Below are positions 2,750 through 21,760 of a DNA stretch of 43,006 bases, piece by piece; within the stretch, counting starts at the first letter, position 1; every line of letters starts with the position of its first letter. Source of the stretch: a virus (taxonomy: Duplodnaviria; Heunggongvirae; Uroviricota; Caudoviricetes). A program made the position numbers and the translations under genes. The notes below the pieces were generated by a model, which was given only the letters and a program-made list of their open reading frames with translations, was not told the origin of the DNA and made no database searches. Location: the IMG/VR virus record IMGVR_UViG_3300031555_002904; one strand, 5' to 3'.

Positions 2750-4405
2750 TTAGCTCATAGATTCTTTATTTTGGATAGTCTTTTCAGATTTCTCGGAGTC
2801 TGGTTTTTCCGGACGGCCCGCAGATTTCTCAGAAGTCTATCCTCCTGTATTAGTTTGAGTTTTATTTGTTTGAGTCTAATTAGAATTGCCCCCACCTTTT
2901 AAATCTTCCATTTTCATAGTAGAAGACATTAGAGGAGGAATCATAATCTCACTCAACTTCATAACTTCATTCTCAAAGTAAGCAGTATTTAAGATAAAGC
3001 TCTGGGAGTGACCCAACGCAATTTGGGGTAACATTTTTGAATATCCCATTTGGACTTGTTCTTTATACATCTTAGCTAACTCTTTATAATTATATTGTGT
3101 GGTTTCCAGCATATATAATCTGAAGTTATATTTCTTCTTTGCCCCACTCAATGATTGAGTGATTCTATCAAAGAAAATCTCAAATTGTAATAATAATGTG
3201 CGTAAAGCAGCTTCATCATTTAAAATAGATTGAGTTAATGCCAAATTACCATCGGTATTAAACATATTCTGAGAAATACCAAGAGCATTAAACACACTAC
3301 GCTCCACTTTAGCTAAATCATCTTGTGAAGTAGTGGTATTTTTATCTGACATATCAATACTATCAATGTCTGCAAATGTGGTCAACACATCGACGCCGAC
3401 CGCACGCTTTAACATTTGCACAGCATTATTATGAATATCTCTTGCTTCATCAACGTCGAAAATCAAATCTCCATTTTTATCCATTGGTAACTTCTGGACT
3501 ACAATTTTCAACAATTTCTGCATTTGCTTTCTACGGTCCAAATCTTGAGCCGCATCCAAATCCAGAATTGCAGGAATAGCGTTGATAAATAAAGGGATGT
3601 CGGCGGCACCATTGCCACCATTAGCGAAACTGAATTTCACAGTGTTCTGAGGTTCCAGCATCCACCAACCAGAATCGTCCACCCAACGGCTACCCAAGTA
3701 ACCACCAACGGTTGGGTCTTGACCAAGAGACTTCTGTCTACTCAACTTTCCACTCTTGTAAGCGACATAGCCTTTCTTAAACTCGTCAGGGAACATATTC
3801 AATACTTGCATACGGTAAGTGGTGTCTGGAAAAGCCTAATCAAAGAATTTCATATTAAATTCAACAACAGGTAAATTACCTTGGTTGAAACGACTACGAC
3901 AGTAATTAATGGGAAGTTCTTGAATGATTACTCCTTTTGGACTATGAACAATATAGCCATAATAAGCGCCATTCTTCACAACTCCAAGAGCAATATCACC
4001 GCAAACTTTAGCGATGTAAGAATTATCAAGATAATGGAGGACTTTATTCAAATCAGTTAAAATCTTCTCATTTGTCTTAGCAGCCTCGTCAAATACTTCA
4101 GGTACAACATACCAGTCATATCTATACATGGTTGCCGCATAATTACAAACACGTTGATAAATACCGCTAGCCTTATAGAAATAATTAGAAATCTCACGCA
4201 AACGGACAACATCGTTATCCATCAAAGCACGATAAATAATAGCCTTATTAATAACGCCACGGGTAACACCTTGAATCGCGCCAAGATTTAAAACAGCATC
4301 ATCCAAAGTTTTAGTATTGATTTTAATCTTACCATATTCGGTAATTCGATTATCCATCATATTAAAACCTTTTGAACGGATTTCTTCTTGTCTACTCAAC
4401 TCCAA
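2750..4405 (-). CDS. Portal protein, 551 aa, with 3 in-frame TAG codons read through (3836-3838, 2876-2878, 2837-2839)
   Basis: ORF-track pieces 3836..4405 and 2876..3811 are in one frame joined across TAG (FFD*AFPDTTYRMQVL); readthrough ends GRPEKPDSEKSEKTIQNKESMS-TAA just before the scaffold RBS; position between terminase and scaffold. Confidence 0.8.
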
Positions 4406-4419
4406 AACTCCACCTCCTT

Positions 4420-4776
4420 TTAATATCCTGCTAAATTCATAATATAGTCATAGGAGATTAAATTTTCGTCAGTATATGGAATTTCAATCAACTTAAAATC
4501 ATGTAAAGCACAAAAGCGTCGTTTTTGATTATCATTATACTATTGTTGGAAGAAACCTTTTTTACCACCGAATTTCGCACTAGGCTCATAATGTTGCTTA
4601 CCTTGATACTCAATAATAAAATCAATTTTTCCATCATCATCAAAAACGACAAAATCAAATCTTAAAGGGCGACCATTTGGGCTCTTTAAGTCGGGGAAGA
4701 TATACTCCATTTTAAAGGGGAGTTCAGCTTCCTTTAAGATTTCTTCAATCTTAATTTCTCCTCTCGAAGCTCTCAT
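4420..4776 (-). CDS. Small PD-(D/E)xK-type nuclease, 118 aa, one in-frame TAG (4540-4542)
   Basis: RBS AAGGAGG then ATG 4776; motifs LRFDF..IIEYQGKQHY; readthrough gives NDNQKRRFC..LIEIPY matching the C-terminal domain of 11607..12371. Confidence 0.75.
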
Positions 4777-4787
4777 AGTCAACCTCC

Positions 4788-6524
4788 TTAATTGAAGAAT
4801 GCCCAATCAGCGGCATTAAACTTCTTTTTCTTTTTCTTTTTATCTTCTTCTTGCTTAATATAATAAAGACCATATTCAAAAGCGGAAAATTTATCTTTCC
4901 TAATTCCACGATTAGCTTGTTTTAAGATGATATTTACGCCTTCATTTTCTTCACGCAAATTCATCATCTCTTCCTTTAATATGGAAGTTAAGGTAAATGG
5001 TTTTAAATATTCTGCCCTTTCCTCAGGCTTCATATTTTGTCCCATTTTAGTTGCCAATAATTTTTCCTTAGCTCCACGCTCGTCAATAAGGAATTTTACC
5101 TTACCGGCTTGTAGCTGAGTCTGCGCATTTGCGTGACACTCAGTATTAATAGGAGCATTTGCTTTTAGAATATACATAGCATCAAACTCAGTATTTGCAG
5201 TTCGATATTTTTTATAATAACCATCTTCATCATTCTCAACACCAAAGTCTGGGAAGAAGTCACCATTTTCATCTTCTTGAGATTTAATCATATAGTCAAC
5301 TAATCCAATACCAAGACCATTACCGTCGATTACGATTGTGCGGGCTTTATACTTATAATATAATTTCTTAATTCTAATTGCCTGGTCCTCAAAATGTTCA
5401 TCCGCAAAAGTATAAATATTAACCAAAGACTTAATTGCGGGACCTTGTGCTTGAGGGGTTACCTTAAATACACAAACAACAGAGTCACATCCCTTACGAC
5501 CTACGTCAACTGATAGGATATAGTAGGCGTTCGCCGCACTCCTGCCGGAATGCTCATATTCAGGTTTCTGTAACTTACGATTTCTATCAAAGAACTCACC
5601 ATTAAAGAATGCATCTTCAACAGTACCAGACCAACGACTCTCATATTCACGAGCAAAAGAAGCTTCATTGAAAGTTCCGTCATTCTTTAAATCTTTAATA
5701 AAATTCGCATCAAGCAATTTGACCAAAACAGGAATTCGCCAAGTACCACCCATGATAATTGCTTTTTCAGGCTCGGTTACCATACGAACAAGTAAGGTAA
5801 TTAATTTATCATATGGGAAAGTATTTTTCCATCCTGCGGTTGTGACATAAATCTGACTCTTATTCAGCGTCTCTTCTGGATGAACAGTTCCATCTAAACA
5901 TCTACGAGAAACGTTAGTGGTAGGAATAATAACTTCAGAAAGGATGGTACCATCAACGCCAACACATTCCTCAATTAGTCCTCCATGACGACGCTTACCA
6001 CGCGAACTCTCACGAGCCGCAATATTATCGAAATAAGAACCATTTTTAAAGACATATTTACAATAGTCTTTACCCTCTAGTGTTTTACCTCGACCCCAGT
6101 CAATTTCTCGACGGAACGCAGGTACTAGAGTACAAATTTCTTGAACCTTTTCTTTTACGATGCCAGCTGCCTACTCTTTACCACCAGATGTAACAAATAA
6201 CTTTGCCCCTGGATATAAAACACAACGGCACATCAAAACCATAATAGAAAGGAAAGATTTAGAATACGCACGGGGGAATACCATGTAAACATATTTATAT
6301 CGCATTGCCGCACGTAAGAAAACTCGTTGATAGAAATAAAATTTTAATTCCTTCTTAACTTCTGGATTACCACCATCTTGTAAGAAGTCAATAAACATAT
6401 CTGGGTATTCTCGCCAGTAAGCTACATAGTCTCTGGCTACAGGAATTATGGCACGCACTCTTTCTTCAGAAAGACCAACCTTTTTACGAGATTGTGATAA
6501 ATTCAATAAATCCTGCAGTGCCAT
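4788..6524 (-). CDS. terL: Terminase large subunit, 578 aa, one in-frame TAG (6171-6173)
   Basis: Walker A-like FPRAYSKS, GGKE*AAG, Walker B-like GLIEE, TTAG coupling motif, nuclease SVDVGR...D; frame checked open from 6170 to 5783. Confidence 0.9.
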
Positions 6525-6526
6525 AA

Positions 6527-7744
6527 TTATCCACCTAAAATTGATTTTAAGAAAGCTTCATCATCATCCGCAAGCTCATCTTCGAAATCATTAAAAGCAG
6601 TAAAGTCCTCATCATGTAAAACTTTCTCAGCATTATCTTCGAATAGAGAAGCTTCAAATGCATCTTCGTCCTCAGAACCATCATCGGACTCAAGTTTAGC
6701 TTCATTTTCCTTATCTTTTTCAATTTCACGAAGAGCGTGTTCAATCATAGAACTCAAGTTAGTCTCTTCATTAATTAAATCGCGTGTATAACTCTGTAAA
6801 TCTTGTAATGTTCTATCAACTTTATCATTTGGTTCATCAATATAATATCTAGGAATAAATCCCTCTCTCTCACAGAGAGCAACCAATTCACCAATACTAT
6901 CAATAAATTCGCCAGACTCAGCTTTATTCTGAGCCGCAGTAAACTTACCAGACTTCATTAAACTGTCATAAACTTTACTCATCTTCTGGAAGCCCTCAAT
7001 ATCGCCAATGTCGATTAATTGATTCGCCTTGAGAGATGTCTTACATACTAATTTCAAAGTATCAATGTGTCCGGCGCCTTGAATATCATATGATTGCATC
7101 ATTTCTTCATATAACTATTCAAGTCTAATCCACTCTTCTGGCTTATAGGTTTTACCCCATTTCAATCGAAGATATGTTCTATCTTCTTCAGTTAAATCAT
7201 CCACAAAATCGTCTTGGCCTCCACTTTGCTCCGCAAAGTAGTCGTCTCCAGACGACAGGAATGGATTATCATTAGTTTCCTGGTAAACAGGAATTTCAAT
7301 TTCCCCTTGGGGAATCGGAACACTAGCCGTGGCGAGCGCTTGAGCGATTTCCGCAGCTTCATATCCCTAACGCTTCATAGTTTCTTCAATTTTCTTATTT
7401 GCGACTTCTTGTAAGAACTCAGTATCTTTCCAACGATAATCTCTAAACTGCTTTAGTTTCATCTTTGAAAGATAACGACCTACAATAGTCGTACCAGTTA
7501 ATTTAGAACGGTCTTTACCATATGATGCCAGTAACTTGTTCCATTCTTCTGGAACATATGGAACATCACATTCTTGTAAAATCCATAAATAAGTATCTGG
7601 ATTAAAATTATCTACATGCATCGTCGCACACTTCTTACATTTATGCAACTTACCTTCTGGATACTTACTTGTATTATTAGACCCATAGAACTAATCAGCG
7701 TTCATTGTTCGATTACATTTTTCACAATAAAAGCTTTCAGCCAT
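6527..7744 (-). CDS. Zn-finger protein immediately upstream of terL (small-terminase candidate), 405 aa, 3 in-frame TAG (7691, 7367, 7115)
   Basis: MAESFYCEKCNRTMNAD*FYG...CKKC; joins ORF-track pieces 7367..7648 and 6527..7102 in one frame; GGAGG RBS. Confidence 0.65.
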
Positions 7745-7786
7745 AAAAATTCCTCCTTTACTTATAATGAAAATTCAAGGCCGGAA

Positions 7787-8839
7787 TTATGACTTTTTGG
7801 CCTTAGAGTTTCTGCACTTTTTACAAATACTGTAAAAGCCATCTTTTGAAGTCTTATTCTTACTAAAATATTTATTATGTGCTAATTTAATTTCTCCACA
7901 GCGGCTGCACTTCTTATACTTACCTTTCATTTCATTTAAAAAATACCAGTTAAGTAATCTATCTTCCGCCTCGGAAGCTATTAATTTTGGAATTTTATTT
8001 CTCCATAAACTTGAAATATATTCAACACTATGTTTAATCCCAAATTCCATTTGAAGTTTTTCTTGAATGTCAATATTTTGCAACCCATCAACTTTGTATT
8101 CACAAATGCGGTCATATAAAGGATAATCTTTTAAAGCTGCATCCGCAACTTCATCAAATTCCTACATAAGATACCACAAATCCTTTTCAAACTCTCCCCA
8201 ACTTTCTTGCTTCATTAAGGAGTAGTTACATAAGATTGCTGAAACGACTTTCGGGTCACATAAAGAAACACCCTCTGGAATCACATAACCTTCATCGTCA
8301 AAATCAAAGTCGCTTTCTAAAGGTATAAAGTGTTTCGAGCGGGTGATATTTTTGGGGATTATTGGTTTACGATAGGCATCTTTAAGAATATATTGGTCCT
8401 TTCGTAATTCGATAATCGCAGTCTTGATGATAAAAGCATCACGCCCGGAAGTAGTCTTTAACTTCTGTTCCCACATCTTAATGGCTTCTCTTAATTGTGC
8501 TAACCCAGGTATCTCTTCTACATCTTTCTTTGTTATCATTACTTTTGGTTGAAAAATCTAATTCTTATCATTACTAATCATTCCATAAATGCCATCTTCG
8601 CCATTTTCGAGTTGGGAAACAAGACCTTCGAAAGAAGTTTCACGTTTATTGACTGTGGCCATTCGGTTCTCAGTTAATAGCTTACGCTCCTTTTTCTCTT
8701 GTTTCTCCATGCAAAGAACTAGGTAGTCCGCAAGTGTCTCAAGGTACTAGGGAGTAGGATTGGGACACTCTTCTAAAATTTTTTCGACTAACTATTTTCT
8801 TTCTTCTGGAGATTCTAAAGTATAATTTAATTTGGTCAT
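7787..8839 (-). CDS. Conserved phage protein with C-terminal Zn ribbon (CSRC..CKKC), possible late regulator, 350 aa, 4 in-frame TAG (8792, 8747, 8558, 8162)
   Basis: ATG 8839 after GGAGG; joins ORF pieces 8162..8539 and 7787..8083; TAA stop. Confidence 0.65.
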
Positions 8840-8867
8840 TACTTTACCTCCAGTCTTTCATACTTTT

Positions 8868-9007
8868 ATTATACCAGAAAATTTTTCTTGAGTCAAGTTT
8901 TTCCGAAAAATTTTTCCCTAACTTATATTTAAAAATTCTGACAATAAAATAAATTGGATTTGACCTGAAGCAACCGACTTGACAAAAGAAAAATTTTTTG
9001 TTATAAT
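8868..9007. promoter_or_regulatory. Divergent sigmaA-type promoters: leftward TTGACT-17-TATAAT (8896..8868), rightward TTGACA-17-TATAAT (8979..9007)
   Basis: Direct match with 17 bp spacers between the two divergent operons. Confidence 0.75.
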
Positions 9008-9040
9008 ATTTATATAAATAAAAGATAAGGAGCAGTATAT

Positions 9041-9469
9041 ATGATTGTCGCAATCGTTATCCTAAGTATCTTATTGGTCGGCGCAACCGCCTTTATTTTT
9101 TGGTTACTTGGGGTGCTAAAAAACACCTTTGATATTGTTGAAGCCTCTTTAGATATGGCCTCCGGCAAACCTTCCGCGAAATTCGGGAAAGCATATGATG
9201 GTAAATATTATCCCGCAACAGTAATCTCGCAAGTTAAATTCAATTCAGATTCTGAAATGATGATTACAGATTTTTCGATGTATGATGAAAAGAAAATTGT
9301 AGGTTTTACAATATGTACGAAAGAAAGTGAACGAGAATATATCGGTGCGCAAGGTGATGATGTTCCCGATGAAATCCTTGAAGAGGCTTTTGGAACTCCG
9401 ACAATATTTAAGAATGTTGTTGTATATGCTCCTTGGGAAGGAATGTGGACATGGAAACCAGCGGATTAA
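9041..9469 (+). CDS. Hypothetical protein with N-terminal transmembrane segment, 142 aa
   Basis: AAGGAG RBS, hydrophobic N-terminus. Confidence 0.7.
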   Translation: MIVAIVILSILLVGATAFIFWLLGVLKNTFDIVEASLDMASGKPSAKFGKAYDGKYYPATVISQVKFNSDSEMMITDFSMYDEKKIVGFTICTKESEREYIGAQGDDVPDEILEEAFGTPTIFKNVVVYAPWEGMWTWKPAD

Positions 9470-9684
9470 TTATTGCTATTTTATGGGCAATCATGTCACT
9501 CCTGGTGATGATTCAATATGCACCAGCCTGTAAAGATTTAAATTGGAAAGACCAATTAATCGTAGGCATTATCTTTATTATTGGCGGTCCAATATTCGCG
9601 GCCGCAAATGTACTTGAAGCAATTTTAGACTGTATTTTACCGGAAGGGTGGGGGGATGACGACGATGGTCCTTGGAAATATTAA
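9444..9684 (+). CDS. Small two-TM membrane protein (about 77-83 aa; start uncertain)
   Basis: ORF 9433..9684, two hydrophobic segments, overlaps both neighbours. Confidence 0.6.
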
Positions 9685-10468
9685 AGAATATACTAAAGCA
9701 CTGAAAGAACAATTTAAAGACCGCATTACCGCAATTGGTGATGCACCTAAGTTAGCAATTATCCAAGTTGGAAATGTAGAAGCATCAAATCGTTATATCA
9801 AAAACAAAGTGAAAGATTGTGAAGAGGTCGGTATCATTGCTGATGTTTATCAATATCCAGAGGATATTACTGAACATGAGCTATGTGAAAATATCAAGCT
9901 CGACCAGGAACACTATGACGGCGTTATAGTGCAACTACCACTCCCACCTCATATCCGCGAGAAGGTCGTGGTTGCCGCAATCAATCCTTTGAAGGATGTT
10001 GATGGATTTCATCCAGATAGTCCTTATGACCCAGCAACTCCCGCAGGCATCATGAAATATCTTCGTGCTTGCGATTACGACGTTGCGGGACGCGACGTCG
10101 TAATCATTGGTCGCAGTAATATTGTTGGTAAGCCTTTGGCGAGAATGATGACAGACGCAGATGCGACAGTAACTCTTTGCCACAGTAAATCAAAATTGTC
10201 ACATCATTTGTATGGGGCTGACCTGATTGTCACAGCAGTAGGTAAAGCAGGCTTTTTAAATTGCTACCCAATTCATGTGCCTGTTATTGACGTCGGCATT
10301 AACTTTGTAACAGATGCTGAAGGCAGAAGCCGACTTGTCGGCGATGCCTTCAATACAGAAGGACGAGATGTAACACCAGTTCCAGGAGGGGTCGGTCTTT
10401 TGACCAGATGCGCACTTTTGGAGAATGTAATTGATGCGAAAGCAAGGGTGAGTTTAAAACGTGGATAA
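9656..10468 (+). CDS. folD: Methylenetetrahydrofolate dehydrogenase/cyclohydrolase
   Basis: Motifs ASNRYIKNK, GVIVQLPLP, KDVDGFH, PATPAG, VIIGRSNIVGKP, VTLCHS, VIDVGIN, TPVPGGVGLLT. Confidence 0.95.
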   Translation: MTTMVLGNIKEYTKALKEQFKDRITAIGDAPKLAIIQVGNVEASNRYIKNKVKDCEEVGIIADVYQYPEDITEHELCENIKLDQEHYDGVIVQLPLPPHIREKVVVAAINPLKDVDGFHPDSPYDPATPAGIMKYLRACDYDVAGRDVVIIGRSNIVGKPLARMMTDADATVTLCHSKSKLSHHLYGADLIVTAVGKAGFLNCYPIHVPVIDVGINFVTDAEGRSRLVGDAFNTEGRDVTPVPGGVGLLTRCALLENVIDAKARVSLKRG

Positions 10469-10757
10469 ATGGACTTTGATTTTATTAGAAGTTGAAGGTA
10501 TGTGGGAAGCAGATAGCTATGCCGCATATCTAGGGCAAATTGGCTGCGACCCGCAGAAGTATCGGGTAGAACGAGATACTTTTAAAGCTGACCGCATTTT
10601 TGCCCTTTATGGATATGATTATTTCTTGCGATTTGTAGAGCGGTGCCCGCATATCCAAGAGATGATAGAAAAATATAAACCCTGTGACCAGAACGGCGGC
10701 TAGTGCACAATGTTCTGTGCCTACTATAAGGAAGGAGGATGTACATTATGCCAATGA
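10461..10757 (+). CDS. Hypothetical Cys-rich protein, extended through TAG at 10701-10703
   Basis: Readthrough adds CTMFCAYYKEGGCTLCQ and ends at TGA overlapping an ATG of the next gene (ATGA coupling). Confidence 0.6.
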
Positions 10758-10975
10758 GTGATTGGATTAACAACGCGCAATTGATTCCAGAAGGCAGACC
10801 ATATAAGGTTGATAGTTCAAGTCGAATTGTCGTACCTTCTCATTTGAAAGCAAAATTTGGAATTGAAAATGGCGACAATATGGACTATTATACCACCTTT
10901 GTTGATGGCAGATGGTTTATTTGTGTAACTAAGCACGTTGAAGAAGAGGAAGCAAAAAATGAAGAAAATATTTAA
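10748..10975 (+). CDS. AbrB/MraZ-like (SpoVT_AbrB fold) DNA-binding protein
   Basis: KVDSSSRIVVPSHLKAKFGIENGD pattern; AGGAGG RBS. Confidence 0.7.
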   Translation: MPMSDWINNAQLIPEGRPYKVDSSSRIVVPSHLKAKFGIENGDNMDYYTTFVDGRWFICVTKHVEEEEAKNEENI

Positions 10976-11483
10976 ATATAGATTGCCAAGAGATGGCGAA
11001 GTAATTACCATTCATGCGGATGTAATTAAATGGCTAGATATCCAAGAGCAAAATGGCTGGCCTCACATCTGGGCAATCGTCGAAGAAAATGGCAATGCGA
11101 GAAACTATGAGATTGCGGCCTGGGGTACCGGCTGGATGGTTCCCGACGAGTTGATGTTCATGAGCTATCTAGGAACAGCGCAAGACCTGGGTGGTTATGT
11201 ATGGCATTATTTCATGCGCGAGGCTGATTCTATCTATGAGCCTATCACAGTATAGGAATATGACTATAATCCTTACGATTATACTTTGACAACAAAGGGA
11301 CAGCCAGACCCCGGATACAGCATTACGATTTCTTGCGGCGAGGCCGGTTCAGCGGTCTCTGGACTGGAATCAAAAGTGTATAATGATTATACAACAAGTA
11401 TTGACAATTTGCAAGGTGTCGTGGAATATTTAACTGCGGCCGTGGCAACCGGTAAAACGGCATCTGTAAGAGCGTGTACGTAA
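10959..11483 (+). CDS. Hypothetical protein, 174 aa, one in-frame TAG (11253-11255)
   Basis: ORF pieces 10938..11255 and 11286..11483 share a frame with no TAA/TGA between. Confidence 0.6.
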
Positions 11484-12774: not shown

Positions 12775-13056
12775 ATGACAATGAGTGAGAAGGTACTGTG
12801 TGTGCTGTGTGCTATACTACTGGTAGTGACCTTCAATGCACTAGGTCAAGCACAGCTTAATGATAGGTACACAAGAGAAGCTGTGGTAGTAGAGGTAGAG
12901 GGTAACACCATCAGCGCAGAGGACACCACAGGCAATGTGTGGTGCTATGATGTAGAGGGTGACACTGTACCATGTGTAGGCACAAGGGTAGTGCTAACCA
13001 TGCTAGCCATGGGCAGTGATACTATCTATGATGACAGAGTAGTAGATGTAGAGTAA
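12775..13056 (+). CDS. Hypothetical protein with N-terminal hydrophobic segment, 93 aa
   Basis: First gene after promoter 12718; GAGG RBS; hairpin after stop. Confidence 0.7.
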   Translation: MTMSEKVLCVLCAILLVVTFNALGQAQLNDRYTREAVVVEVEGNTISAEDTTGNVWCYDVEGDTVPCVGTRVVLTMLAMGSDTIYDDRVVDVE

Positions 13057-13261
13057 GGTACACAGCCTTACTCTATTATACTATGTAGTAGTAGCCACCG
13101 AGCACAGGCGTCAGGTCCCCTAGTGGGGCATACTGTAGGGGGTGCTAAAAAAAAGTTGCGTAAATAAGCAAAAAAACTCTTGACAAAAAGCTCCCGTAAT
13201 GCTATAATAAAGACACAAAGAGAGAGGGACACAACCTCACAGAGTAAAGGAGATAACAACA

Positions 13262-13417
13262 ATGACCATTTCTAACAACATCGCTATGTGGATTGCTAAC
13301 AGCAACCTTGACAATACTACTACTTGTCCTGAGTGGCTGGGTATCACTCTTGTGGCTCTAGTCGTAGCCTTTGGCGTAGCTGCTATTGCCACTATCATCG
13401 CTGTCAACAAGAACTAA
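13262..13417 (+). CDS. Small TM protein, 51 aa (not in ORF track)
   Basis: AAGGAG RBS, MTISNNIAMW...AVNKN-TAA. Confidence 0.6.
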   Translation: MTISNNIAMWIANSNLDNTTTCPEWLGITLVALVVAFGVAAIATIIAVNKN

Positions 13418-13434
13418 TAGAGGAGGACAAGACA

Positions 13435-13656
13435 ATGAACAAGAGACCTATCAACAAGATGCTGAGCACAGTAAGAGAGCTAAAGCCTGAGGTGCAGGCA
13501 AGCCATCAGTACAAGTACATCATCATGGTACTGAACAAGGACAACGAGGACATCACCTACGCAGAGAAGCTGATGGTGAGAGACAACCTGCGTGTGCTGT
13601 GTAAGGTAGCAGGTGTGTCCTATGAGAGACTGCTGATGAGGGTGTGCCAAGAGTAA
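13435..13656 (+). CDS. Hypothetical protein, 73 aa
   Basis: AGGAGG RBS; stop inside GGGTGTGCC/GGCACACCC terminator. Confidence 0.7.
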   Translation: MNKRPINKMLSTVRELKPEVQASHQYKYIIMVLNKDNEDITYAEKLMVRDNLRVLCKVAGVSYERLLMRVCQE

Positions 13657-13868
13657 GGCACACCCTTTAATTGTGCAATGTGACGAATCCCGCCATAGGC
13701 GCGCCAACGGTCCTGGCGCGCCCTAATTGCCAGTATAACACATCCCAGCCATTTTGTCAAGAGGAAAATTAGAAAAAAAATAAATAATTATTTTTCCCAA
13801 AAGGTATTGACAAATCGGTCTCCGTGTGGTATACTAAGTACAACAAAAGAACAAAGGAGCTAAACACC

Positions 13869-14192
13869 ATGAAGAAGATTACCAAGACTGCCGAAGAGAC
13901 CAAGAGAGACGAACTCGTCATCGCTACTCGCAATGCAAAGGACAAGATTGAGTACTGTGTGAGAGTCATCAACCGCAGACAGAAGGCAATGGCTATGTTG
14001 CCCCAAGAGTCCGCAGAATACAAGATGTTTGCGGGCGATGTAACCGAGGATAAATGGGTACTGGTTTCCGCTCTGCGTAGCTACGACAGAGCAAGGGAAG
14101 AACTGGCTGAGCACTGCCGAGCCTACCACCTCGCAGGAAATACTTTCCTTTCTGGCTATGAACTTTTGGAAATTCTCGCAGAAAAGGCTTGA
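13869..14192 (+). CDS. Hypothetical protein, 107 aa
   Basis: Promoter 13807, AAGGAG RBS; TGA overlaps next -35. Confidence 0.75.
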   Translation: MKKITKTAEETKRDELVIATRNAKDKIEYCVRVINRRQKAMAMLPQESAEYKMFAGDVTEDKWVLVSALRSYDRAREELAEHCRAYHLAGNTFLSGYELLEILAEKA

Positions 14193-14243
14193 CAAAAGCC
14201 TTTCTCTGTGATACAATGTAGGTACAAAAGGAAAGGAACTGAA

Positions 14244-14684
14244 ATGAAAATGATTTACTGTGGCTATCAGGGTAGTGGAAAATCTACCTACTGTAGAAAT
14301 AACCCCAATACTACTGTTGACCTCGACAGCTCCGCATTTGTCAAGGTCGCAGGATGGGAAGAAAACTATGTGCGGACGGCGGTTGCCCTCGCTACTGACA
14401 AGAATGTATTCATCTCCGCTCATCGTGTGGTGATTGAATACTGCATGAACAACAACATTCCCTTTGTTATCCTCGCACCCTCGCAGAGCAAAGAGGCTTG
14501 GCGTGCTCGTCTTGAGTTCCGCTACCACAAGAACCCCATCCTCGCAAACTTTAAGGCAATCGCAGACTTCGAACAAAATTTCGACAACGACCTGCAATAC
14601 TATCGCCTTTTGGAAAGCAAGGGCATTTGCGTGCGGTGGATTGAAGCCACAGTTGTGACAAACATTGGCGAAAAAATTTTTTGA
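14244..14684 (+). CDS. P-loop NTPase/kinase-like protein, 146 aa
   Basis: N-terminal Walker A GYQGSGKS followed by VDLDS; small-molecule kinase architecture. Confidence 0.75.
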   Translation: MKMIYCGYQGSGKSTYCRNNPNTTVDLDSSAFVKVAGWEENYVRTAVALATDKNVFISAHRVVIEYCMNNNIPFVILAPSQSKEAWRARLEFRYHKNPILANFKAIADFEQNFDNDLQYYRLLESKGICVRWIEATVVTNIGEKIF

Positions 14685-14751
14685 AAAGGGGTTGACAAAA
14701 CCCCTTTCCCGTGTTATAATTAAGATACAAAAAGAGAGGAGAGTAAATCAA

Positions 14752-15078
14752 ATGTTAAAGAGCATGAGCATCACCGTGAGTTTCACCGACCACTGCTACA
14801 CCGAACGCAGAGAAAGACTTGTAAAAATGGATAGAGAGTTAGGCTTCGGCGAAATCATTTGCACCACAATTTACAGAGGAAAGAGAAACTGCTTGACTTC
14901 CACTGGTATCTTAATGGTAATGGATGCCAAGAGCAACATTCTTGTCACCGCCTACCCTGCAAGATGGAAGATTGCCTGCAAGATGTTCTACGAAACTACT
15001 GGTGGTTATCCTCCTGCTGGTTACTCTGAAATCATCAGACGGGCAAAAGCATGGGACTGTGAAAATAATTGGATTTAG
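14752..15078 (+). CDS. Hypothetical protein, 108 aa (ends TAG; TAA at 15094-15096 if read through)
   Basis: Promoter 14692, GAGGAG RBS. Confidence 0.7.
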   Translation: MLKSMSITVSFTDHCYTERRERLVKMDRELGFGEIICTTIYRGKRNCLTSTGILMVMDAKSNILVTAYPARWKIACKMFYETTGGYPPAGYSEIIRRAKAWDCENNWI

Positions 15079-15140
15079 GGGTTGACAAATCCCTAAATCT
15101 ATGGTATAATTTAATTACAAAAAGAAAAGAGGTAAACGAA

Positions 15141-15296
15141 ATGAGTAAGAAAAAGAAAAACACAATCGACCGCAGAATGTTCAAGAAAGAGGGAGAAGAA
15201 CTTCAGCAGTATCTCCACTTTCGCAAGCGTGGCTCTGTGGTAGAAAGCAAGAAGAAATACAACAGACAGAAATTCAAAAGGGGTGATAATGGATGA
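15141..15296 (+). CDS. Small very basic protein, 51 aa
   Basis: Promoter 15082, GAGG RBS; MSKKKKNT...SKKKYNRQKFKRGDNG. Confidence 0.7.
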   Translation: MSKKKKNTIDRRMFKKEGEELQQYLHFRKRGSVVESKKKYNRQKFKRGDNG

Positions 15297-15517
15297 TTAT
15301 TAAAGGGGCAGATGGTGAGTACGAAGCCACATGGAAGCTCGGCGAAGACTATGTTCATGTAGTCTATCGAAAGATAATTCATCCCAATTGGCCCATTTTC
15401 CGCACAAAATACTACTATTGCACAGTAATTCACAAAGAAGATTTCAACCAGAAGCGAGTGCGGGATGCTCTCCTTGTTAGAGAACATTACGAAAAAAAAT
15501 GTGCTTGCGGGGGTTGA
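15293..15517 (+). CDS. Hypothetical protein, 74 aa
   Basis: ATGA overlap with previous gene. Confidence 0.65.
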   Translation: MIIKGADGEYEATWKLGEDYVHVVYRKIIHPNWPIFRTKYYYCTVIHKEDFNQKRVRDALLVREHYEKKCACGG

Positions 15518-15562
15518 CAAAATCCCCAAACCATGTTATAATAATGCCAAGAGGTGAGAACA

Positions 15563-15793
15563 ATGAAAACAGCAGCAGAAATAGCACGAGAGTGGCAAGC
15601 ACAATTGCGTGACCCTCGCATTAGATGTCCTAACTGCGGGAGTAGTGCCCAATCCGAACTGGTGTACCAGGACAATACAAGCAACCGCAGAGAGAAAAAA
15701 GACGATTACATTTGCGGGTGCGGGTGTCGGTTCAGGGCACATTTTACACTCATTCAAACCGAGATACTGGAAATCGAAGCGCCTTACTACTAA
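15563..15793 (+). CDS. Zn-ribbon protein, 76 aa
   Basis: CPNC...CGCG; promoter 15514, GAGGTG RBS. Confidence 0.7.
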   Translation: MKTAAEIAREWQAQLRDPRIRCPNCGSSAQSELVYQDNTSNRREKKDDYICGCGCRFRAHFTLIQTEILEIEAPYY

Positions 15794-16088
15794 GGCGCTT
15801 TTTCCATTTTGCTTTTTCGGTCGCGCGCCCACGGCCCAGGCGCGCGTTATTTCCATTATACCACAGCCCCAGCAATTTGTCAATAGGCAATTTGCACAAA
15901 AAATAAATAGTTGTTTTTCCTAAAATTGTGCTTGACTTTCTATTCCGGATGTGATACAATGTTCTTGTGGTTGAGAGAGACCACTAAATCAAAAAAAAGT
16001 TCAAGAAAATGAAAAAAAGTTCTTGACAAACCGGGAAACTGGTGTTATAATTAAGATACAAAAAGGAACTGAAAAGGAGATAATAACA

Positions 16089-16562
16089 ATGACTAAGGGT
16101 AATTTCTTCCGCTACTACAACAAGCTGACTGGCGCTGACCGCACTCTGATTTTCTTCGAGCGCAAGGGTATCATCTACATCTACAACTGCAAGCACATCG
16201 CTCCTCGTTGGGCACACGAAGAATTTGAGTCCTCCAAGAACGGCGGACAGCAGAAATTCAAGATGTACATCAGCGTATCCGAAAAGGATAAGCTGATTGC
16301 CAAGGGTGCAACCCCCATCATGACCAAGGCTGAATTTGAAGCCATTCCTTACAAGAACAAGGGTCACAAGTGCGAAGCCTATCTGCACAAGGCTTGCGGT
16401 CTGGGTGAGTACACTCCCGACCATGTCCGCTTTGACTACTGCGGTGATGTGGAAATCGGTGGCGTTCAGTATCAGGTCAAGTACGAAAACGCAAGCCTGA
16501 CCAATGTGGATGTGCTCCACAAGGCACAGAAGCGGGCAAGAGAAATGAAAAAGGGAAAGTAA
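16089..16562 (+). CDS. Hypothetical protein, possible PD-(D/E)xK nuclease fold, 157 aa
   Basis: GDVEIGGVQYQVK resembles a D..(Q/E)xK motif; AAGGAG RBS. Confidence 0.55.
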   Translation: MTKGNFFRYYNKLTGADRTLIFFERKGIIYIYNCKHIAPRWAHEEFESSKNGGQQKFKMYISVSEKDKLIAKGATPIMTKAEFEAIPYKNKGHKCEAYLHKACGLGEYTPDHVRFDYCGDVEIGGVQYQVKYENASLTNVDVLHKAQKRAREMKKGK

Positions 16563-16652
16563 AAAAAACTTTCCCTTTTTTCAAAAAAGGTATTGACAAA
16601 TCACGGTTTTGGGTGTATAATTAAGGTACAAAAAGGAAAGGAACTGATACAA

Positions 16653-17105
16653 ATGGCAAAGCAGATGAACATCACAATTAACTTCGACATGGACGGCACA
16701 ATCGCTGACCTCTATGGTGTAGAGAACTGGCTCGAATACCTCATCGCAGGTGACACTTTCCCCTACGCAAACGCAAGACCTCTGCTCCACCTCTCCGCAC
16801 TGGCTCGCAAGCTGAACGCACTTCAGCGGAACGGCTACAACCTCGCAGTTATCTCTTGGTTGAGCAAAAGTGGAACTGCTGAATACAACGAAGCAGTTAC
16901 CGAAGTCAAGCTGAACTGGCTGAGAAAGCACCTGCCGAGCGTGAACTGGAACGAAATCCACATCGTTCCCTATGGCACTCCGAAGCAGAACTTCTGCAAC
17001 AATCCTCTCGACATTCTGTTCGACGATGAAGAACGCAACAGAACGAACTGGACAGGCAGAGCCTACGATGTGCAGAACATCTTGGAAATTCTCAGAGAAA
17101 TCTGA
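16653..17105 (+). CDS. HAD-superfamily phosphatase (5'(3')-deoxyribonucleotidase-like), 150 aa
   Basis: Motif I FDMDGTIADL, motif IV ILFDD. Confidence 0.85.
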   Translation: MAKQMNITINFDMDGTIADLYGVENWLEYLIAGDTFPYANARPLLHLSALARKLNALQRNGYNLAVISWLSKSGTAEYNEAVTEVKLNWLRKHLPSVNWNEIHIVPYGTPKQNFCNNPLDILFDDEERNRTNWTGRAYDVQNILEILREI

Positions 17106-17175
17106 GAATTTCCTCTTGACAAACGGCAATTGATGTGCTATAATTAAGACACAAAGAAGAAAGGAACTGATAAAA

Positions 17176-17325
17176 ATGTTAGAAATGATTTGCGCAATCC
17201 CCGAAGAAATCGGCTGGGCATTGGTTGGCTTTGTCGGAGCATTCGCCTTGATGATGGCTGTCAAGGTCGGCAAGATAATCGTTGAAGCAATCAAAGAAAG
17301 ATTGGAGGATGATGAAGAATGCTGA
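17176..17325 (+). CDS. Small TM protein, 49 aa (not in ORF track)
   Basis: GAAAGGAACTGATA leader; MLEMICAIPEEIGWALVGFVGAFALMM... Confidence 0.6.
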   Translation: MLEMICAIPEEIGWALVGFVGAFALMMAVKVGKIIVEAIKERLEDDEEC

Positions 17326-17588
17326 AAACTGGAATTGTAGTTTGCCCCACTTGCGGGGGCGAGGTTGTTGAGTTCGATACTCTCGACATTGAGGTGGACA
17401 ACACCACTGTGACCCTCTTTAAGGTTGGCGAGTGCGACCACTGCGGAAACCATTACCAGTGGCACGAGGAATACACCCTTGCAGGATACCGCGACCTGGA
17501 ACAGACCCAGGGCGAAAGCGAGGACGAGCCCGATGCGGACGAATGCGGGTTCGACCCCTTCGCAGGTTGTTATACTTACGACTGCTGA
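17319..17588 (+). CDS. Zn-ribbon acidic protein, 89 aa
   Basis: CPTC...CDHC; GGAGG RBS. Confidence 0.7.
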   Translation: MLKTGIVVCPTCGGEVVEFDTLDIEVDNTTVTLFKVGECDHCGNHYQWHEEYTLAGYRDLEQTQGESEDEPDADECGFDPFAGCYTYDC

Positions 17589-17758
17589 AAAAGCAGTCGT
17601 TTGTTTTTGGCGGCGCGCTCACGGTCCAGGCGCGCCGATTTTCGTCAGAATAACCAGTTTCAACAATTTTCCGTGCAATTTATTTGTGCAAAATAACAGT
17701 TGACAAATCCCAAAAGGTGTGATACAATAGTATCAACAAAGGAAAGGAACTGATACAC

Positions 17759-18163
17759 ATGAAACTGGTTTACGATTGCGGACAATCCATCTCTCTGTCT
17801 CCTCGCAGAGATTTTGAAGAAACTTCTATTTGGTGGCACCTGCACCTGCTCGATGCGGAAGAATCCCTCGACCGCACCAACCGCACTTACTACGACACTT
17901 TCGAGAGCTTTTTTGAAGCGGTCTGTGAAAACAAGGTAAGAAATGCAGAAGCCTACATCGGTCTGTTCAAGACCCCCAAGGTATTGGTGAAATGTGGCAT
18001 GAACCACTATACTGTCACCAAGAGGAACTTCAAAGAGGTGTGCGTGTGGAACTACACCAAAGAAGTCTCCCACCTGCCCATGTCCACCCTCATGGACAAA
18101 CTTCCTGCGGACGAGTTCGCAGAATACCTGCGTGAAAGGGGAGTAGCCTTACAGCAAGGCTAA
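17759..18163 (+). CDS. Hypothetical protein, 134 aa
   Basis: Promoter 17700 and standard leader. Confidence 0.75.
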   Translation: MKLVYDCGQSISLSPRRDFEETSIWWHLHLLDAEESLDRTNRTYYDTFESFFEAVCENKVRNAEAYIGLFKTPKVLVKCGMNHYTVTKRNFKEVCVWNYTKEVSHLPMSTLMDKLPADEFAEYLRERGVALQQG

Positions 18164-18247
18164 TCCCCGGAAAAATTAAAAAAAGGTATTGACAAATCAA
18201 ACAATCTGTGCTATAATAAATTTATCAAGTGAAAGGAAATGATACCA

Positions 18248-18907
18248 ATGTTTACTGAAAAAACTTTTGCAATTATCGACACTGAAACCCTCGGCGGTGC
18301 TTCTCAGGCGCACTGCCCTACCTACCACTGCGCTGGCATTGCTTTCACCAAGAGAGCAGAAATCAGCAGAATCAACATCGTGGTCATCGGCAACCTACTT
18401 TTGGATTCTGCGTTCTATGGCAAATTCAAAAAAGACTACTACCGCGACCTGCTCCGCGACCCTGCAACTATTATCTGCTACAACGAAGCAGAGGCAAGCG
18501 AAATCTTCTCTGCGTGGCTTGCTGAAAACAATGTGTCCTGCGCCTGCGCCCACAACAGCGGTTTTGACTTCAACAAGACTTTCGTTGCTGAGTGTATCGA
18601 GGGAATGGAATTCATCGACACTTGGCAGGCATTTTTCGAGACCATCGGCAAGTACACCAAGTACAACAAATTCTGCTGTGAAAATGGCTTTGTAACCAAG
18701 AGCGGAAACGTTCAGATGACCGCAGAAATCTGCTACCGCTTCATCAGCGGAGACATTGAGTTCGTCGAGGAACACACCGCCCTCGCAGATTGTGAAATCG
18801 AAATGCAGATTCTGCGTGCGGTTTGGGCAACTCACCGCAAGTTTACTCGCAATGTTCACAAGGGCGATTCCGCCTATCGCTTCCAAGTGGTCAAGGGCAG
18901 ATTCTAA
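18248..18907 (+). CDS. DEDDh 3'-5' exonuclease (DnaQ-like)
   Basis: ExoI IIDTET, ExoII AHNSGFD, ExoIII EEHTALADCEIE. Confidence 0.88.
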   Translation: MFTEKTFAIIDTETLGGASQAHCPTYHCAGIAFTKRAEISRINIVVIGNLLLDSAFYGKFKKDYYRDLLRDPATIICYNEAEASEIFSAWLAENNVSCACAHNSGFDFNKTFVAECIEGMEFIDTWQAFFETIGKYTKYNKFCCENGFVTKSGNVQMTAEICYRFISGDIEFVEEHTALADCEIEMQILRAVWATHRKFTRNVHKGDSAYRFQVVKGRF

Positions 18908-18996
18908 AATCTGCCCTCCCGGGCGAAAAAAGGTATTGACAAATTCAAAATCATGTGCTATAATTAACTCAGAAAACAAGAAAGGAACTGACAGTA

Positions 18997-19404
18997 ATGA
19001 CTTGGGCAGAACATTTGGAAGCTATGCGAAATACTCCCGCATTTATTAACGAAGCAAACCCCCTGCGCTTCTCTGCACCCGAAAGCGAAGGTTTGTACCT
19101 TGTAGGTAGCACCAATTTCAATCCCTTTACCCATGAAGAAATCTATTTGGTAAAGGTTGGTAAAAGCTACAACCTGCAACGCAGAATGAAAGATTATCTC
19201 ACCACCAACCCTGGAATGTTCCACATTGATTTTTGTACCATTCCCCGCCCCATGGTCGGCAAGTCCGAATGGCAGTGCCACGCAATTTTGTATGCAGTTT
19301 GCAAAGGCAAGGTAGAAAAAAGCGAAGAGTGGGTGAGAGTAAGCCGAGAGGTTTATCTCGAAATCTGCGAAAAGGGTTTCAAATATTTTTCTGAAAGAAT
19401 GTAA
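18997..19404 (+). CDS. GIY-YIG-like (T5orf172-type) protein, 135 aa
   Basis: GLYLVG...VKVGKSYNLQRRMKDY...EEW. Confidence 0.7.
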   Translation: MTWAEHLEAMRNTPAFINEANPLRFSAPESEGLYLVGSTNFNPFTHEEIYLVKVGKSYNLQRRMKDYLTTNPGMFHIDFCTIPRPMVGKSEWQCHAILYAVCKGKVEKSEEWVRVSREVYLEICEKGFKYFSERM

Positions 19405-19492
19405 AAAACCCTTGACAAACCCCCAAGAGTGTGCTATAATAAATACAACAAAGGGAAAGGAAAATCCCAAACACCAGAAAGGAAATGATACC

Positions 19493-19735
19493 ATGATGAA
19501 CTACAAGTATGTTGTTGAGAGCTTCTACGATGATGCCAAGGTCACTGTCGAAACCAACGACCCCGAGGTCGCAGTTCTGGAAATGATGCAGAGGGACATG
19601 GATGGTGTCCACGCCCACTGCGTTGATGGTCTGACTGGCGAAGTCCTCGCCCTCGTCAACCACCCCGACCAGTTCGTCCAGTCTGAGTTCGCTCTGATGA
19701 CCCTGGGTGTGCTGATGGCACACCTGGCAAAGTAA
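19493..19735 (+). CDS. Hypothetical protein, 80 aa
   Basis: Promoter 19412, standard leader, terminator 19745-19771. Confidence 0.7.
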   Translation: MMNYKYVVESFYDDAKVTVETNDPEVAVLEMMQRDMDGVHAHCVDGLTGEVLALVNHPDQFVQSEFALMTLGVLMAHLAK

Positions 19736-20044
19736 CAAACCAAGAGCCATCCCGCAAGGGGTGGCTTTTTCATTTCAATTTTTGGGCGCGGCGCCCTCGG
19801 ATGTGGGCGCCGGAATTTCCATTATACCACACCGCCAGCAATTTGTCAAGAGAAAAGTTACACAAAGTTTGATTGATTTGAATTCCTGTTTTTGTGCATT
19901 ATTACCTATTGACTTTTGGTGCGGTCTGTGGTATACTATCATTGTCAAGGGGAGATAGGTGAGCCTGCCCCCAAGGGCGAAAAAAAAATCTCAAAAAAAA
20001 TTGAGAAAACCCCTTGACAAACCCCTTAAAGTGTGATACAATAA

Positions 20045-20280
20045 GGGTACAAAAGGCGAGGGCAAGGCGACCACGAAAAGGTGGGTGCCCACGAGAGCGA
20101 GTAAGACCTTGTTACCAATGACCCGACCGCAAGGTGTTCCTGTTTGCGGAATACAAATGTGAACCAGACCACGCAGGCTGAAAAAATGTCGTGGATACGC
20201 AGGATACAAAAGCCAATTTCTTTGGTGGTGAAAGCGGACTCACCCTAACTGTGGCTTAAAGGCTCAGCCAAGCCAAAGAA
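20045..20280 (+). ncRNA. Putative structured small RNA (unassigned)
   Basis: Promoter 20014, no RBS-led ORF, several stems (GGGCA/TGCCC, CCAC/GTGG, ACC-GCAA-GGT, CCACG/CGTGG, TTTCTTTGG/CCAAAGAAA). Confidence 0.5.
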
Positions 20281-20408
20281 AAAAAAATTAAAAAAAACTC
20301 TTGACAAACAAATCAAGATGTGCTATAATAAGTATGTAAAGAGGAAAACCTCTTACAAATAAATTCATCGACAGGTTCAAGTCGTTAAAACCGAAAGGAA
20401 TTGATACT

Positions 20409-20768
20409 ATGGCTAACAACAAGAAGATGACCAAGGCTGACTACTTCAAGCAGATTTCTGCCAACTACCCTCTGACTGCCGATGAGCAGGCTTTCATCGC
20501 CCACGAACTGGAACTGCTCGCCAAGAAGAACTCTGCGGAAAAGAAGCCGACCGCACAGCAGGTGGCAAACGCAGGTGTCGCTGATGCCATCGTCAATGCG
20601 ATGGAAGATGGTGTCCTCTACACCATCACCGACCTCATCAAGACTGTTCCTGCGTGTGCGGAACTGACCAACCAGCGTGTTTCTGCCATCGTGCGTGGTA
20701 TGATTGGCACCAAGGTTGAGCGTGTCGAGGAAAAGCGTAAGGCATACTTCCGCAAGATTGCGGAGTAA
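20409..20768 (+). CDS. Family A paralog 1 (putative winged-helix DNA-binding protein), 119 aa
   Basis: Shares HELELLAKKNSAEKKPTAQQ and VPACAELTNQRVSAIVRG with 23438 and 24973. Confidence 0.8.
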   Translation: MANNKKMTKADYFKQISANYPLTADEQAFIAHELELLAKKNSAEKKPTAQQVANAGVADAIVNAMEDGVLYTITDLIKTVPACAELTNQRVSAIVRGMIGTKVERVEEKRKAYFRKIAE

Positions 20769-20893
20769 GCCTACTCCCCCAAGGGCAGGGGGTAACCCCT
20801 GCCCACCTTGACCCCGGCGAAAAAATTTTCAAAAAGCACTTGACAAATCCCTCTGTCTGTGCTATACTATAATCACAGAAAGGAAGTGAGTCA

Positions 20894-21253
20894 ATGCTTG
20901 ATGAAAAGTTAATTGCCAAGCACATGGCAAGCCTCGGCATCAGCCGAGAGGAAGCAATCCAGTTGATTGAGGATGACAAAGCAATCGACAGGGGCGCAAA
21001 GATGTTTGAGCTTGACCCCGAACTTGAGAAAGGCGCAAAAAAGGCAAGACAAGCCGAGCGCAAGGTCAGCACCACCCCAGTGAAGCGAGAGAAGAAAGCC
21101 AAGCCTGAAAAGGCTGAAATCTGCTCCGCAATGATGGATGGTCTGCGAGTTTTGGGTGTGGAAGATTTCACCATCAACAACCCCGAACGCGAGTTCTTGT
21201 TCATCCACAATGGAACGAAGTACAAGGTCACACTTGCCTGCCCTCGTTCCTAA
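20894..21253 (+). CDS. Family B paralog 1, 119 aa
   Basis: Shares EEA.Q.I.DDKAIDRG with 23923. Confidence 0.8.
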   Translation: MLDEKLIAKHMASLGISREEAIQLIEDDKAIDRGAKMFELDPELEKGAKKARQAERKVSTTPVKREKKAKPEKAEICSAMMDGLRVLGVEDFTINNPEREFLFIHNGTKYKVTLACPRS

Positions 21254-21577
21254 GGCTCCTAAGGGGTCGAGCCAATCGGCCCCATTCCATTGGCGGTGTG
21301 CTGTCATCGTCTGGAGGTAAACCACTAGGGGGAAGGCGCCCAACCCTGGGGTATGGTACTAAAACAAAACAGCCGAGAAAAGACCCAGGGGGGCGCCCTT
21401 GGGTCTTCGTCATTTTGCACAAAAATTCGGCCGCGCGCTGACGTACGCCAGCGCCGGTTTTTCGGCGAAATAACCAGTTTCAACAATTTTTGGGGCGAAA
21501 TCTTTGTGCAAATTGACTATTGACATTTCCCATTATCGGGTGTATAATAAGGGTACAAAGTCAAGGAGGTAACAACA

Positions 21578-21760
21578 ATGGGTATGACTTACAAGCAGTT
21601 CATGGACTACGCAATGCAGAACTACTGCAACGGCGGTGATTGTGTGGTCGAGTGTTGGGATGAACTCTCTTTCCGCTACTACTGCGAAGAGTTCGGTCCG
21701 ATGACCAAGGAAAAGGCTGACAGTCTCTTCCGCACTTACCGCGGTTGTGGGGGGTACTAA
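21578..21760 (+). CDS. Hypothetical protein, 60 aa
   Basis: Promoter 21520, AGGAGG RBS. Confidence 0.7.
   Translation: MGMTYKQFMDYAMQNYCNGGDCVVECWDELSFRYYCEEFGPMTKEKADSLFRTYRGCGGY

What the first reader, a model, noticed from the sequence alone, without database searches (positions are those of the whole stretch)
2750..11483. TAG is read as Gln (code 15) in packaging, portal and neighbouring genes
Seen: 12 in-frame TAGs across terL, portal, the small nuclease and the two upstream genes, plus 2 in the folD operon and 2 in the 28.7-29.9 kb block. Each joins ORF-track fragments into one frame ending in TAA/TGA beside the next RBS. Gln is supported internally: FFQQ*YNDNQKRRFC (4420 gene) aligns with LKIQQERDTRKNQWC in its homologous domain at 11607, placing * on Q. 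GGKE*AAG also sits where large terminases usually have QA. Known: TAG-to-Gln recoding occurs in several gut phage groups. The early array and most genes from 30 to 43 kb contain no in-frame TAG, so they translate under either code. This fits a code switch that gates late functions.
Basis: partly seen in the sequence, partly recalled or inferred. Interest (0 to 1): 0.75.

Follow-up and report, generated by a model that had tools for sequence, protein, structure and literature searches.

The report
Gut phage reads TAG as glutamine
This large gut phage reads the stop codon TAG as glutamine in its packaging and virion genes, helped by its own TAG-reading tRNAs and a release factor 2 gene. The case is real and well supported, but it is an already described kind of phage code change.

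Summary
Five adjacent minus-strand genes (regulator-like, YonG-like, TerL, small nuclease, portal) hold exactly 12 in-frame TAGs, no TAA or TGA, and all end in TAA.

TAG means Gln:
- TerL TAG118 aligns to Q in 5 of 7 GenBank relatives and 73 of 80 IMG/VR relatives; the other 7 IMG/VR relatives have TAG.
- Across 110 orthologue pairs inside the contig, Q beats every other residue by 180 log-likelihood units.

The rest of the genome supplies the machinery:
- There are two tandem tRNA(CUA) genes with tRNA-Gln-like acceptor ends.
- A release factor 2 gene starts at window 42236.

TAG makes up 15% of Gln codons in the 73 kb structural module. It is absent from the early array (0 TAG against 66 CAA/CAG codons) and almost never ends a gene.

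All of this matches published code-15 phages (Borges et al.; phAss-1), and the scan had already reported it for the adjacent window. It is a new member of a known kind.

The idea that TAG gates late genes fits the distribution but is unproven.

Side finding: the 402 kb record is probably two distinct ~200 kb phages joined by the assembler.

The parts
7787..8839 (-). First gene of the structural/packaging module: 350-aa HTH plus C-terminal zinc-ribbon protein (PHROG 5767, labelled 'sigma factor'). It has 4 in-frame TAGs at 8792, 8747, 8558 and 8162.
   Evidence: The AlphaFold model has pLDDT 70.8. Only weak HTH matches were found (G20C small-terminase HTH Z 7.9, sigma-H Z 6.6), so the sigma assignment is unproven.
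6527..7744 (-). YonG-like 405-aa protein just upstream of TerL (possible small terminase). It has 3 TAGs at 7691, 7367 and 7115.
   Evidence: phrog_3314, residues 2-345. All three TAGs are conserved as TAG in the B-half orthologue within identical contexts. Columns 126 and 210 are Q in 53 and 50 of 77 relatives.
4788..6524 (-). Large terminase (SPbeta YonF type), 578 aa, with 1 TAG at 6171-6173 (residue 118).
   Evidence: The column is Q in Enterococcus H1, Geobacillus E3, Alicyclobacillus KKP_3916, Bacillus FADO and MT836163, and TAG in phAss-1. Among 80 IMG/VR relatives it is Q in 73 and TAG in 7.
4420..4776 (-). Small homing-endonuclease-like nuclease between TerL and portal, with 1 TAG at 4540-4542.
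   Evidence: The column is Q 41, K 21, TAG 16 in relatives.
2750..4405 (-). Portal protein, 551 aa, TTG start with a strong ribosome-binding site. It has 3 TAGs at 3836, 2876 and 2837.
   Evidence: (phrog_2739, residues 15-549). A TAG at 2876 pairs with Q in the B half, and a B-half TAG pairs with Q here.
10938..11483 (+). DUF7352 protein with one TAG at 11253-11255.
   Evidence: The alignment to the B-half orthologue continues past the TAG.
29300..29914 (-). HTH/ScpB-like protein with one TAG at 29504-29506.
   Evidence: The PHROG 3396 match covers residues 48-221 of the 234-aa 29300-30004 reading frame and spans the TAG.
12781..27789 (+). Array of about 45 small plus-strand genes (putative early genes). 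None has an in-frame TAG, and only one ends at TAG, with TAA six codons later.
30410..42163 (+). Plus-strand block without in-frame TAG, leading to the RF2 gene.
42236..43006 (+). Peptide chain release factor 2 gene. The first 257 of 360 codons lie in the window. It has SPF and GGQ motifs, needs no frameshift and contains no TAG.
   Evidence: TIGR00020 prfB 445.5 bits, cut-off 370; both prfA models fall below their cut-offs.

Best explanation
The window belongs to a ~200 kb tailed phage with an SPbeta/YonF-type terminase, whose cultured relatives infect Bacillota. The phage uses TAG as a glutamine codon. Shown by sequence: TAG, and only TAG, interrupts conserved genes. TAG sits at columns that are Gln in relatives. 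The genome encodes two tandem tRNA(CUA) genes and an RF2 gene. TAG is concentrated in the virion/packaging module, absent from the small-gene array and hardly ever used as a terminator. Inferred: early after infection, the host's standard machinery translates the TAG-free genes. The phage then supplies tRNA(CUA), which host enzymes charge with Gln because the tRNA keeps the tRNA-Gln acceptor features. It also supplies RF2, which keeps TAA and TGA termination going without RF1. Only then can TAG-bearing late genes be translated to full length.
For: - In frame: 12 TAG, 0 TAA and 0 TGA in the five genes.
- Profile matches run through the TAGs.
- Whole-contig ORF cover is 0.80 with code 11 and 0.93 with TAG as sense. 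The controls give 0.83 (TGA as sense) and 0.88 (TAA as sense).
- Orthologue pairs between the two halves: opposite TAG stand Q 65, E 14 and K 12 of 151. The log-likelihood for Q exceeds that for K by 180. In conserved contexts the counts are Q 49 and TAG 22.
- External columns agree. In 80 relatives the in-frame stops are 1372 TAG against 17 TAA/TGA.
- There are four tRNA(CUA) genes on the contig. Each has U1 with a weak or absent 1-72 pair, and G73, like the phage's own tRNA-Gln. The two in half A reach 54.2 and 47.1 bits on Rfam's tRNA model.
- RF2 is confirmed.
- TAG as a share of TAG+CAA+CAG by module: structural 134/873, replication 25/405, early array 0/66, RF2 block 2/131. Fisher odds ratio 17.7, p = 1.5e-10.
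- TAG positions lean towards the 5' end of genes relative to CAA/CAG (KS p = 0.002).
- Literature: Borges et al. 10.1101/2021.08.26.457843; phAss-1 PMC10607447; proteomic proof of code 15 in crAss-like phages PMC9523058.
Against: - No proteomic or expression data exist for this phage. The timing, the charging of the suppressor tRNAs and the host are all inferred.
- Some late-type genes carry no TAG: the 777-aa endolysin, a 2683-aa structural-module protein and several virion proteins.
- Some replication genes do carry TAG: RecJ-like has 2 and PhoH has 1.
- RF2 is missing from the equally recoded B half and from 9 of 10 relatives tested, so it is not essential.
Confidence: 0.9

Rival explanations
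1. TAG is Gln, but it has no regulatory role. Once a suppressor tRNA is present late in infection, CAG/CAA-to-TAG changes are simply tolerated in genes expressed late, so the skewed distribution reflects drift and not a gate.
For: TAG columns are less conserved than CAA/CAG columns: 25% against 47-61% Q opposite. TAG load varies widely between close relatives, from 0 to 51 in the same five genes. The endolysin has no TAG.
Against: TAGs are conserved as TAG between halves that differ by about 25% in protein sequence. They lean towards gene 5' ends. Homing endonuclease genes are the most TAG-dense, as Borges et al. reported. Early genes avoid TAG completely.
Confidence: 0.35
2. TAG encodes a residue other than Gln (Glu, Lys, Trp, Tyr or pyrrolysine).
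For: ARAGORN labels the tRNAs 'Pyl' from the anticodon alone. E and K are the next most frequent partners.
Against: Q is 180 nats better than K or E. TerL118 is Q in 73 of 80 relatives. The tRNA acceptor ends resemble the phage's tRNA-Gln. W and Y are almost absent opposite TAG.
Confidence: 0.03
3. The TAGs are nonsense mutations in a decaying phage, or sequencing or assembly errors for CAG.
For: None beyond the fragmented look of the genes under code 11.
Against: Only TAG occurs in frame. There are 490 TAGs in 136 genes. The same TAG sites recur in the diverged B half and in independent metagenome contigs. Matching suppressor tRNAs are present.
Confidence: 0.01
4. The host itself uses TAG as Gln, so the phage merely matches its host.
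For: The host is unknown.
Against: Genes of the early array and most replication genes avoid TAG entirely, which is unexpected if the host read it as sense. The phage carries its own suppressors and RF2. Cultured relatives infect standard-code Bacillota. Sister genomes with 76-82% TerL identity to the window's use the standard code.
Confidence: 0.02

Closest known systems
Code-15 (TAG to Gln) recoded gut phages of Borges et al. (Lak, crAss-like, Garnet, Amethyst, Agate, Topaz; bioRxiv 10.1101/2021.08.26.457843)
   Same: In-frame TAG aligns to Gln. The phage encodes tRNA(CUA). RF2 is present in some TAG-recoded members. Recoding is concentrated in structural genes and homing endonucleases, and replication genes are mostly standard. 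Standard-code and recoded members are mixed within one clade.
   Different: Clade membership could not be tested because their sequences are not on hand. Here the endolysin has no TAG, whereas in their crAss and Agate sets the lysis genes were the most biased.
phAss-1 / proposed Phassvirus group (OQ749652; Babkin et al. 2023, PMC10607447; NCBI 'Caudoviricetes code 15 clade')
   Same: It has the same terminase family (45% identity), the same gene order around TerL and portal, and TAG in TerL at the same column. It carries a large tRNA set with 2-3 tRNA-Sup(CUA), a very long tape measure protein and no dedicated synthetase.
   Different: Its genome is 136 kb against about 200 kb here. Only 45% TerL identity and no nucleotide-level match place it outside the same genus. 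RF2 is not mentioned in the sections of that paper that I read.
Standard-code relatives: Enterococcus phages H1/VRE9_4/EF1, Geobacillus virus E3, and IMG/VR genomes G001 and G002 (190-195 kb, direct terminal repeats)
   Same: The packaging module is homologous (TerL 50% to Enterococcus phages and Geobacillus E3, 77-80% to G001 and G002) and syntenic.
   Different: They have no in-frame TAG in the five genes and no tRNA(CUA). Code 11 already gives 0.88-0.89 ORF cover.

Membership tests
TAG-to-Gln (code 15) recoded phages | In-frame TAG, and no other stop, inside conserved genes | tested here: met
   There are 12 TAG, 0 TAA and 0 TGA in five genes. My gene model finds 490 in-frame TAGs in 136 genes on the contig.
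TAG-to-Gln (code 15) recoded phages | TAG columns align to Gln in homologues | tested here: met
TAG-to-Gln (code 15) recoded phages | Phage-encoded suppressor tRNA with anticodon CUA | tested here: met
   Two tandem genes lie in each genome half, outside the window. The two in half A also match Rfam's tRNA model.
TAG-to-Gln (code 15) recoded phages | Recoding biased to late/structural genes, with early genes readable under either code | tested here: met
TAG-to-Gln (code 15) recoded phages | Gln actually inserted at UAG | not testable with these tools
   This needs proteomics. It was shown for crAss-like phages in PMC9523058.
TAG-to-Gln (code 15) recoded phages | Host uses the standard code | not tested
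   Inferred from TAG avoidance in early genes and from the hosts of cultured relatives.
Phassvirus (phAss-1 genus) | Genus-level nucleotide similarity to phAss-1 | tested here: not met
   Megablast of 8.7 kb found no phAss-1 match. TerL identity is 45%.
Bacterial-type release factor 2 | prfB model above cut-off, with SPF and GGQ motifs | tested here: met
   TIGR00020 scores 445.5 bits against a cut-off of 370. The motifs are visible.
Sigma factor (for the 7787-8839 gene) | Sigma-70 region 2 and region 4 folds | tested here: inconclusive
   There is no Pfam hit. Foldseek finds nothing. VIA-align gives only HTH-level matches with Z 6-8.

The most novel reading that the evidence does not exclude
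The TAG codons are a positioned translational gate and not a tolerated quirk. They sit preferentially near gene 5' ends. They load the first gene of the late module, an HTH/zinc-ribbon regulator-like protein with 4 TAGs, and they load selfish endonuclease genes. On this reading, the appearance of the suppressor tRNA licenses late gene expression itself. The gate has been gained or lost repeatedly among phages with at least 72% TerL identity to the window's.
Probability: 0.25. Interest if true: 0.45.

Novelty: new member of a known kind. Interest (0 to 1): 0.3.

Why it matters
In practice, this record and its many IMG/VR relatives must be annotated with table 15. Otherwise TerL, portal, the tape measure protein (50 TAGs) and about a quarter of all genes come out as fragments; some PHROG 'unknown' families that match halves of TerL are probably such fragments. 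Biologically, the clade offers complete standard-code and recoded genomes at 72-92% TerL identity to the window's. That makes it a good natural series for asking how a code change starts and whether it times late genes. The mechanism itself is not new.

Tried and rejected
- Pfam gave nothing for four of the five proteins, and only a sub-threshold DUF2726 hit for the nuclease.
- Megablast against GenBank phages found only a 178-bp match.
- A greedy longest-ORF cover wrongly picked antisense ORFs in the 12-28 kb array. I replaced it with a codon log-odds gene model using dynamic programming.
- No class Ic synthetase (PF00749) is on the contig.
- The first fold job for the 7787-8839 protein failed. 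The second gave a moderate model with no clear Foldseek match and only generic HTH matches.
- TAG as a real terminator: of 34 candidate TAG-ended calls, most are spurious ORFs in the tRNA array or are better read through. At most about 9 real genes have TAG followed by TAA or TGA within 2-38 codons.
- Relative G005, which is TAG-rich, showed no tRNA(CUA) and only a modest gain in ORF cover. It is a linear record that may lack part of the genome, and I did not resolve it.
- Stop-codon use in relatives without TAG in the five genes was not decisive on its own.

Full report
**Observation**

Under the standard code, the minus strand of 2750-8839 is broken into many short ORFs. Frame 0 of these genes holds 12 TAG but no TAA or TGA in about 2000 codons. 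The other two frames hold 91 and 266 TAA+TGA. Every gene ends in TAA, and each start follows a GGAGG-type ribosome-binding site.

PHROG profiles identify four of the five:
- a portal (phrog_2739);
- a homing-endonuclease-like nuclease;
- a YonG-like protein (phrog_3314);
- a protein of the family labelled 'sigma factor' (phrog_5767).

TerL matches two 'unknown' families that look like terminase halves. Each match runs across the TAGs.

**What TAG means**

GenBank relatives come first. tblastn against phage records shows an SPbeta/YonF-type terminase. The closest hits are an unannotated human-gut fragment (62%), Enterococcus phages H1 and VRE9_4 and Geobacillus E3 (50%), and phAss-1 (45%). In local alignments to seven such loci:
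- TerL TAG118 faces Q in five, TAG in phAss-1 and M in one.
- Nuclease TAG89 faces Q, Q and TAG.

The contig itself gives a second test. Its 402 kb consist of two syntenic halves at about 65-87% nucleotide identity. In 110 reciprocal-best orthologue pairs, the codons opposite TAG are CAA 48, TAG 36 and CAG 29, followed by a scatter. Using substitution frequencies from the same alignments, Gln beats the next residue by 180 log-likelihood units. In conserved contexts the partners are Q 49, TAG 22 and E 5.

IMG/VR relatives give a third test. In 80 relatives with 72-92% TerL identity, in-frame stops in the five orthologues are 1372 TAG against 17 others. TerL118 is Q in 73 and TAG in 7. P4 columns 126 and 210 are Q in 53 and 50.

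**Machinery**

The window has no tRNA gene. The contig carries about 40 tRNA genes per half just beyond the window's 3' end, including two tandem tRNA(CUA) genes in each half. All four have U1 with a weak or absent 1-72 pair, and G73, like the phage's own tRNA-Gln. The two in half A also match Rfam's tRNA model. One of them is 97 nt long.

The last ORF of the window (42236 onward) is a full release factor 2 with SPF and GGQ motifs. It is a 1.1 kb insertion relative to the other half. It occurs in only 1 of 10 related genomes tested, so it is an accessory. No Glx-type synthetase is present.

**Distribution**

A codon-model gene finder genes on the contig. Of these, 136 have internal TAGs, 490 TAGs in all. 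The counts below are for half A, in genome coordinates:

| Module | TAG | CAA+CAG |
|---|---|---|
| Structural, 73 kb (terminase, portal, virion proteins; tape measure protein with 50 TAGs) | 134 | 739 |
| Replication (NrdD, polymerase, helicases, ligase, topoisomerase) | 25 | 380 |
| Small-gene array | 0 | 66 |
| RF2 block | 2 | 129 |

Nine of the 25 replication-module TAGs lie in one GIY-YIG homing endonuclease. Comparing the structural module with the array plus RF2 block gives p = 1.5e-10.

TAG is almost never a terminator. It is mildly enriched towards gene 5' ends. This fits a late gate, but drift under late suppression explains much of it too. The endolysin has no TAG.

**Comparison with the literature**

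This is the pattern described by Borges et al.: TAG to Q, suppressor tRNAs, occasional RF2, and bias to structural genes and homing endonucleases. It was also described for phAss-1, a distant relative placed in NCBI's 'Caudoviricetes code 15 clade'. Proteomic proof of code 15 exists for crAss-like phages (PMC9523058, abstract seen).

On a quick TerL tree, lineages with no TAG in the five genes sit among TAG-rich ones. Two complete genomes from TAG-free lineages (190 and 195 kb, direct terminal repeats) behave as standard code and have no tRNA(CUA). Recoded relative G006 and both halves of this contig gain 11-19 points of ORF cover under TAG-as-sense.

An earlier report of this scan reached the same verdict for the adjacent window.

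**Side finding**

Bases 1-127 of the contig equal 203511-203637. That is exactly one 127-mer, which I recall is a common top k in SPAdes assemblies. The last 123 bases equal 199524-199646. The two halves fall in different TerL clades, and the B-type TerL recurs identically in three other contigs. Complete relatives are 169-195 kb. The 402 kb record is therefore most likely two co-occurring phages joined through a shared ~4 kb segment.

Noticed in passing
Whole contig: G000:C1 1-127 = 203511-203637; 199524-199646 = 402189-402311: The 402 kb record is two syntenic but diverged (~65-87% nt) ~200 kb genomes in tandem, joined at an exact 127-mer. The halves fall in different TerL clades, and complete relatives are 169-195 kb. 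This is probably a figure-8 co-assembly of two phages that share a ~4 kb identical segment, not a 402 kb genome.
   Followed up: partly
window 42236-43006 (continues to 43318 in window numbering): A phage RF2 gene with SPF and GGQ motifs and no frameshift site. It is a 1.1 kb insertion absent from the equally recoded B half and from 9 of 10 related genomes tested, so RF2 is dispensable for TAG recoding here.
   Followed up: yes
window 4420-4776; genome 154306-155298 (L016:306-1298, minus strand): Selfish nuclease genes are the most TAG-dense. The GIY-YIG homing endonuclease inside the otherwise TAG-poor replication module has 9 TAGs in 330 codons. The small nuclease between TerL and portal is 94% identical in protein between the halves, against 76% for its neighbours.
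   Followed up: partly
window 9656-10468: A phage-borne FolD (methylenetetrahydrofolate dehydrogenase/cyclohydrolase) is an auxiliary metabolic gene at the head of a short plus-strand operon opposite the structural module.
   Followed up: partly
genome 74134-83409 (L011:134-9409) and 104082-112133 (L013:82-8133): The 3091-aa tape measure protein carries 50 TAGs, while a 2683-aa protein in the same module carries none. TAG load is very uneven among late genes.
   Followed up: no
L108:3974-4046 (G001:C1:123974-124046): A standard-code relative with no tRNA(CUA) has an ARAGORN-predicted tRNA with anticodon UUA, which would read TAA. This could be a misprediction or an ochre suppressor.
   Followed up: no
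window 25788-26393: An HD-domain phosphohydrolase sits among the small TAG-free array genes.
   Followed up: no
L019:2265-2361 (minus strand): One of the two suppressor tRNAs is 97 nt long. Its extra arm has a 7-nt loop identical to the anticodon loop of the phage's tRNA-Gln(CUG). The B-half counterpart lacks the arm.
   Followed up: partly
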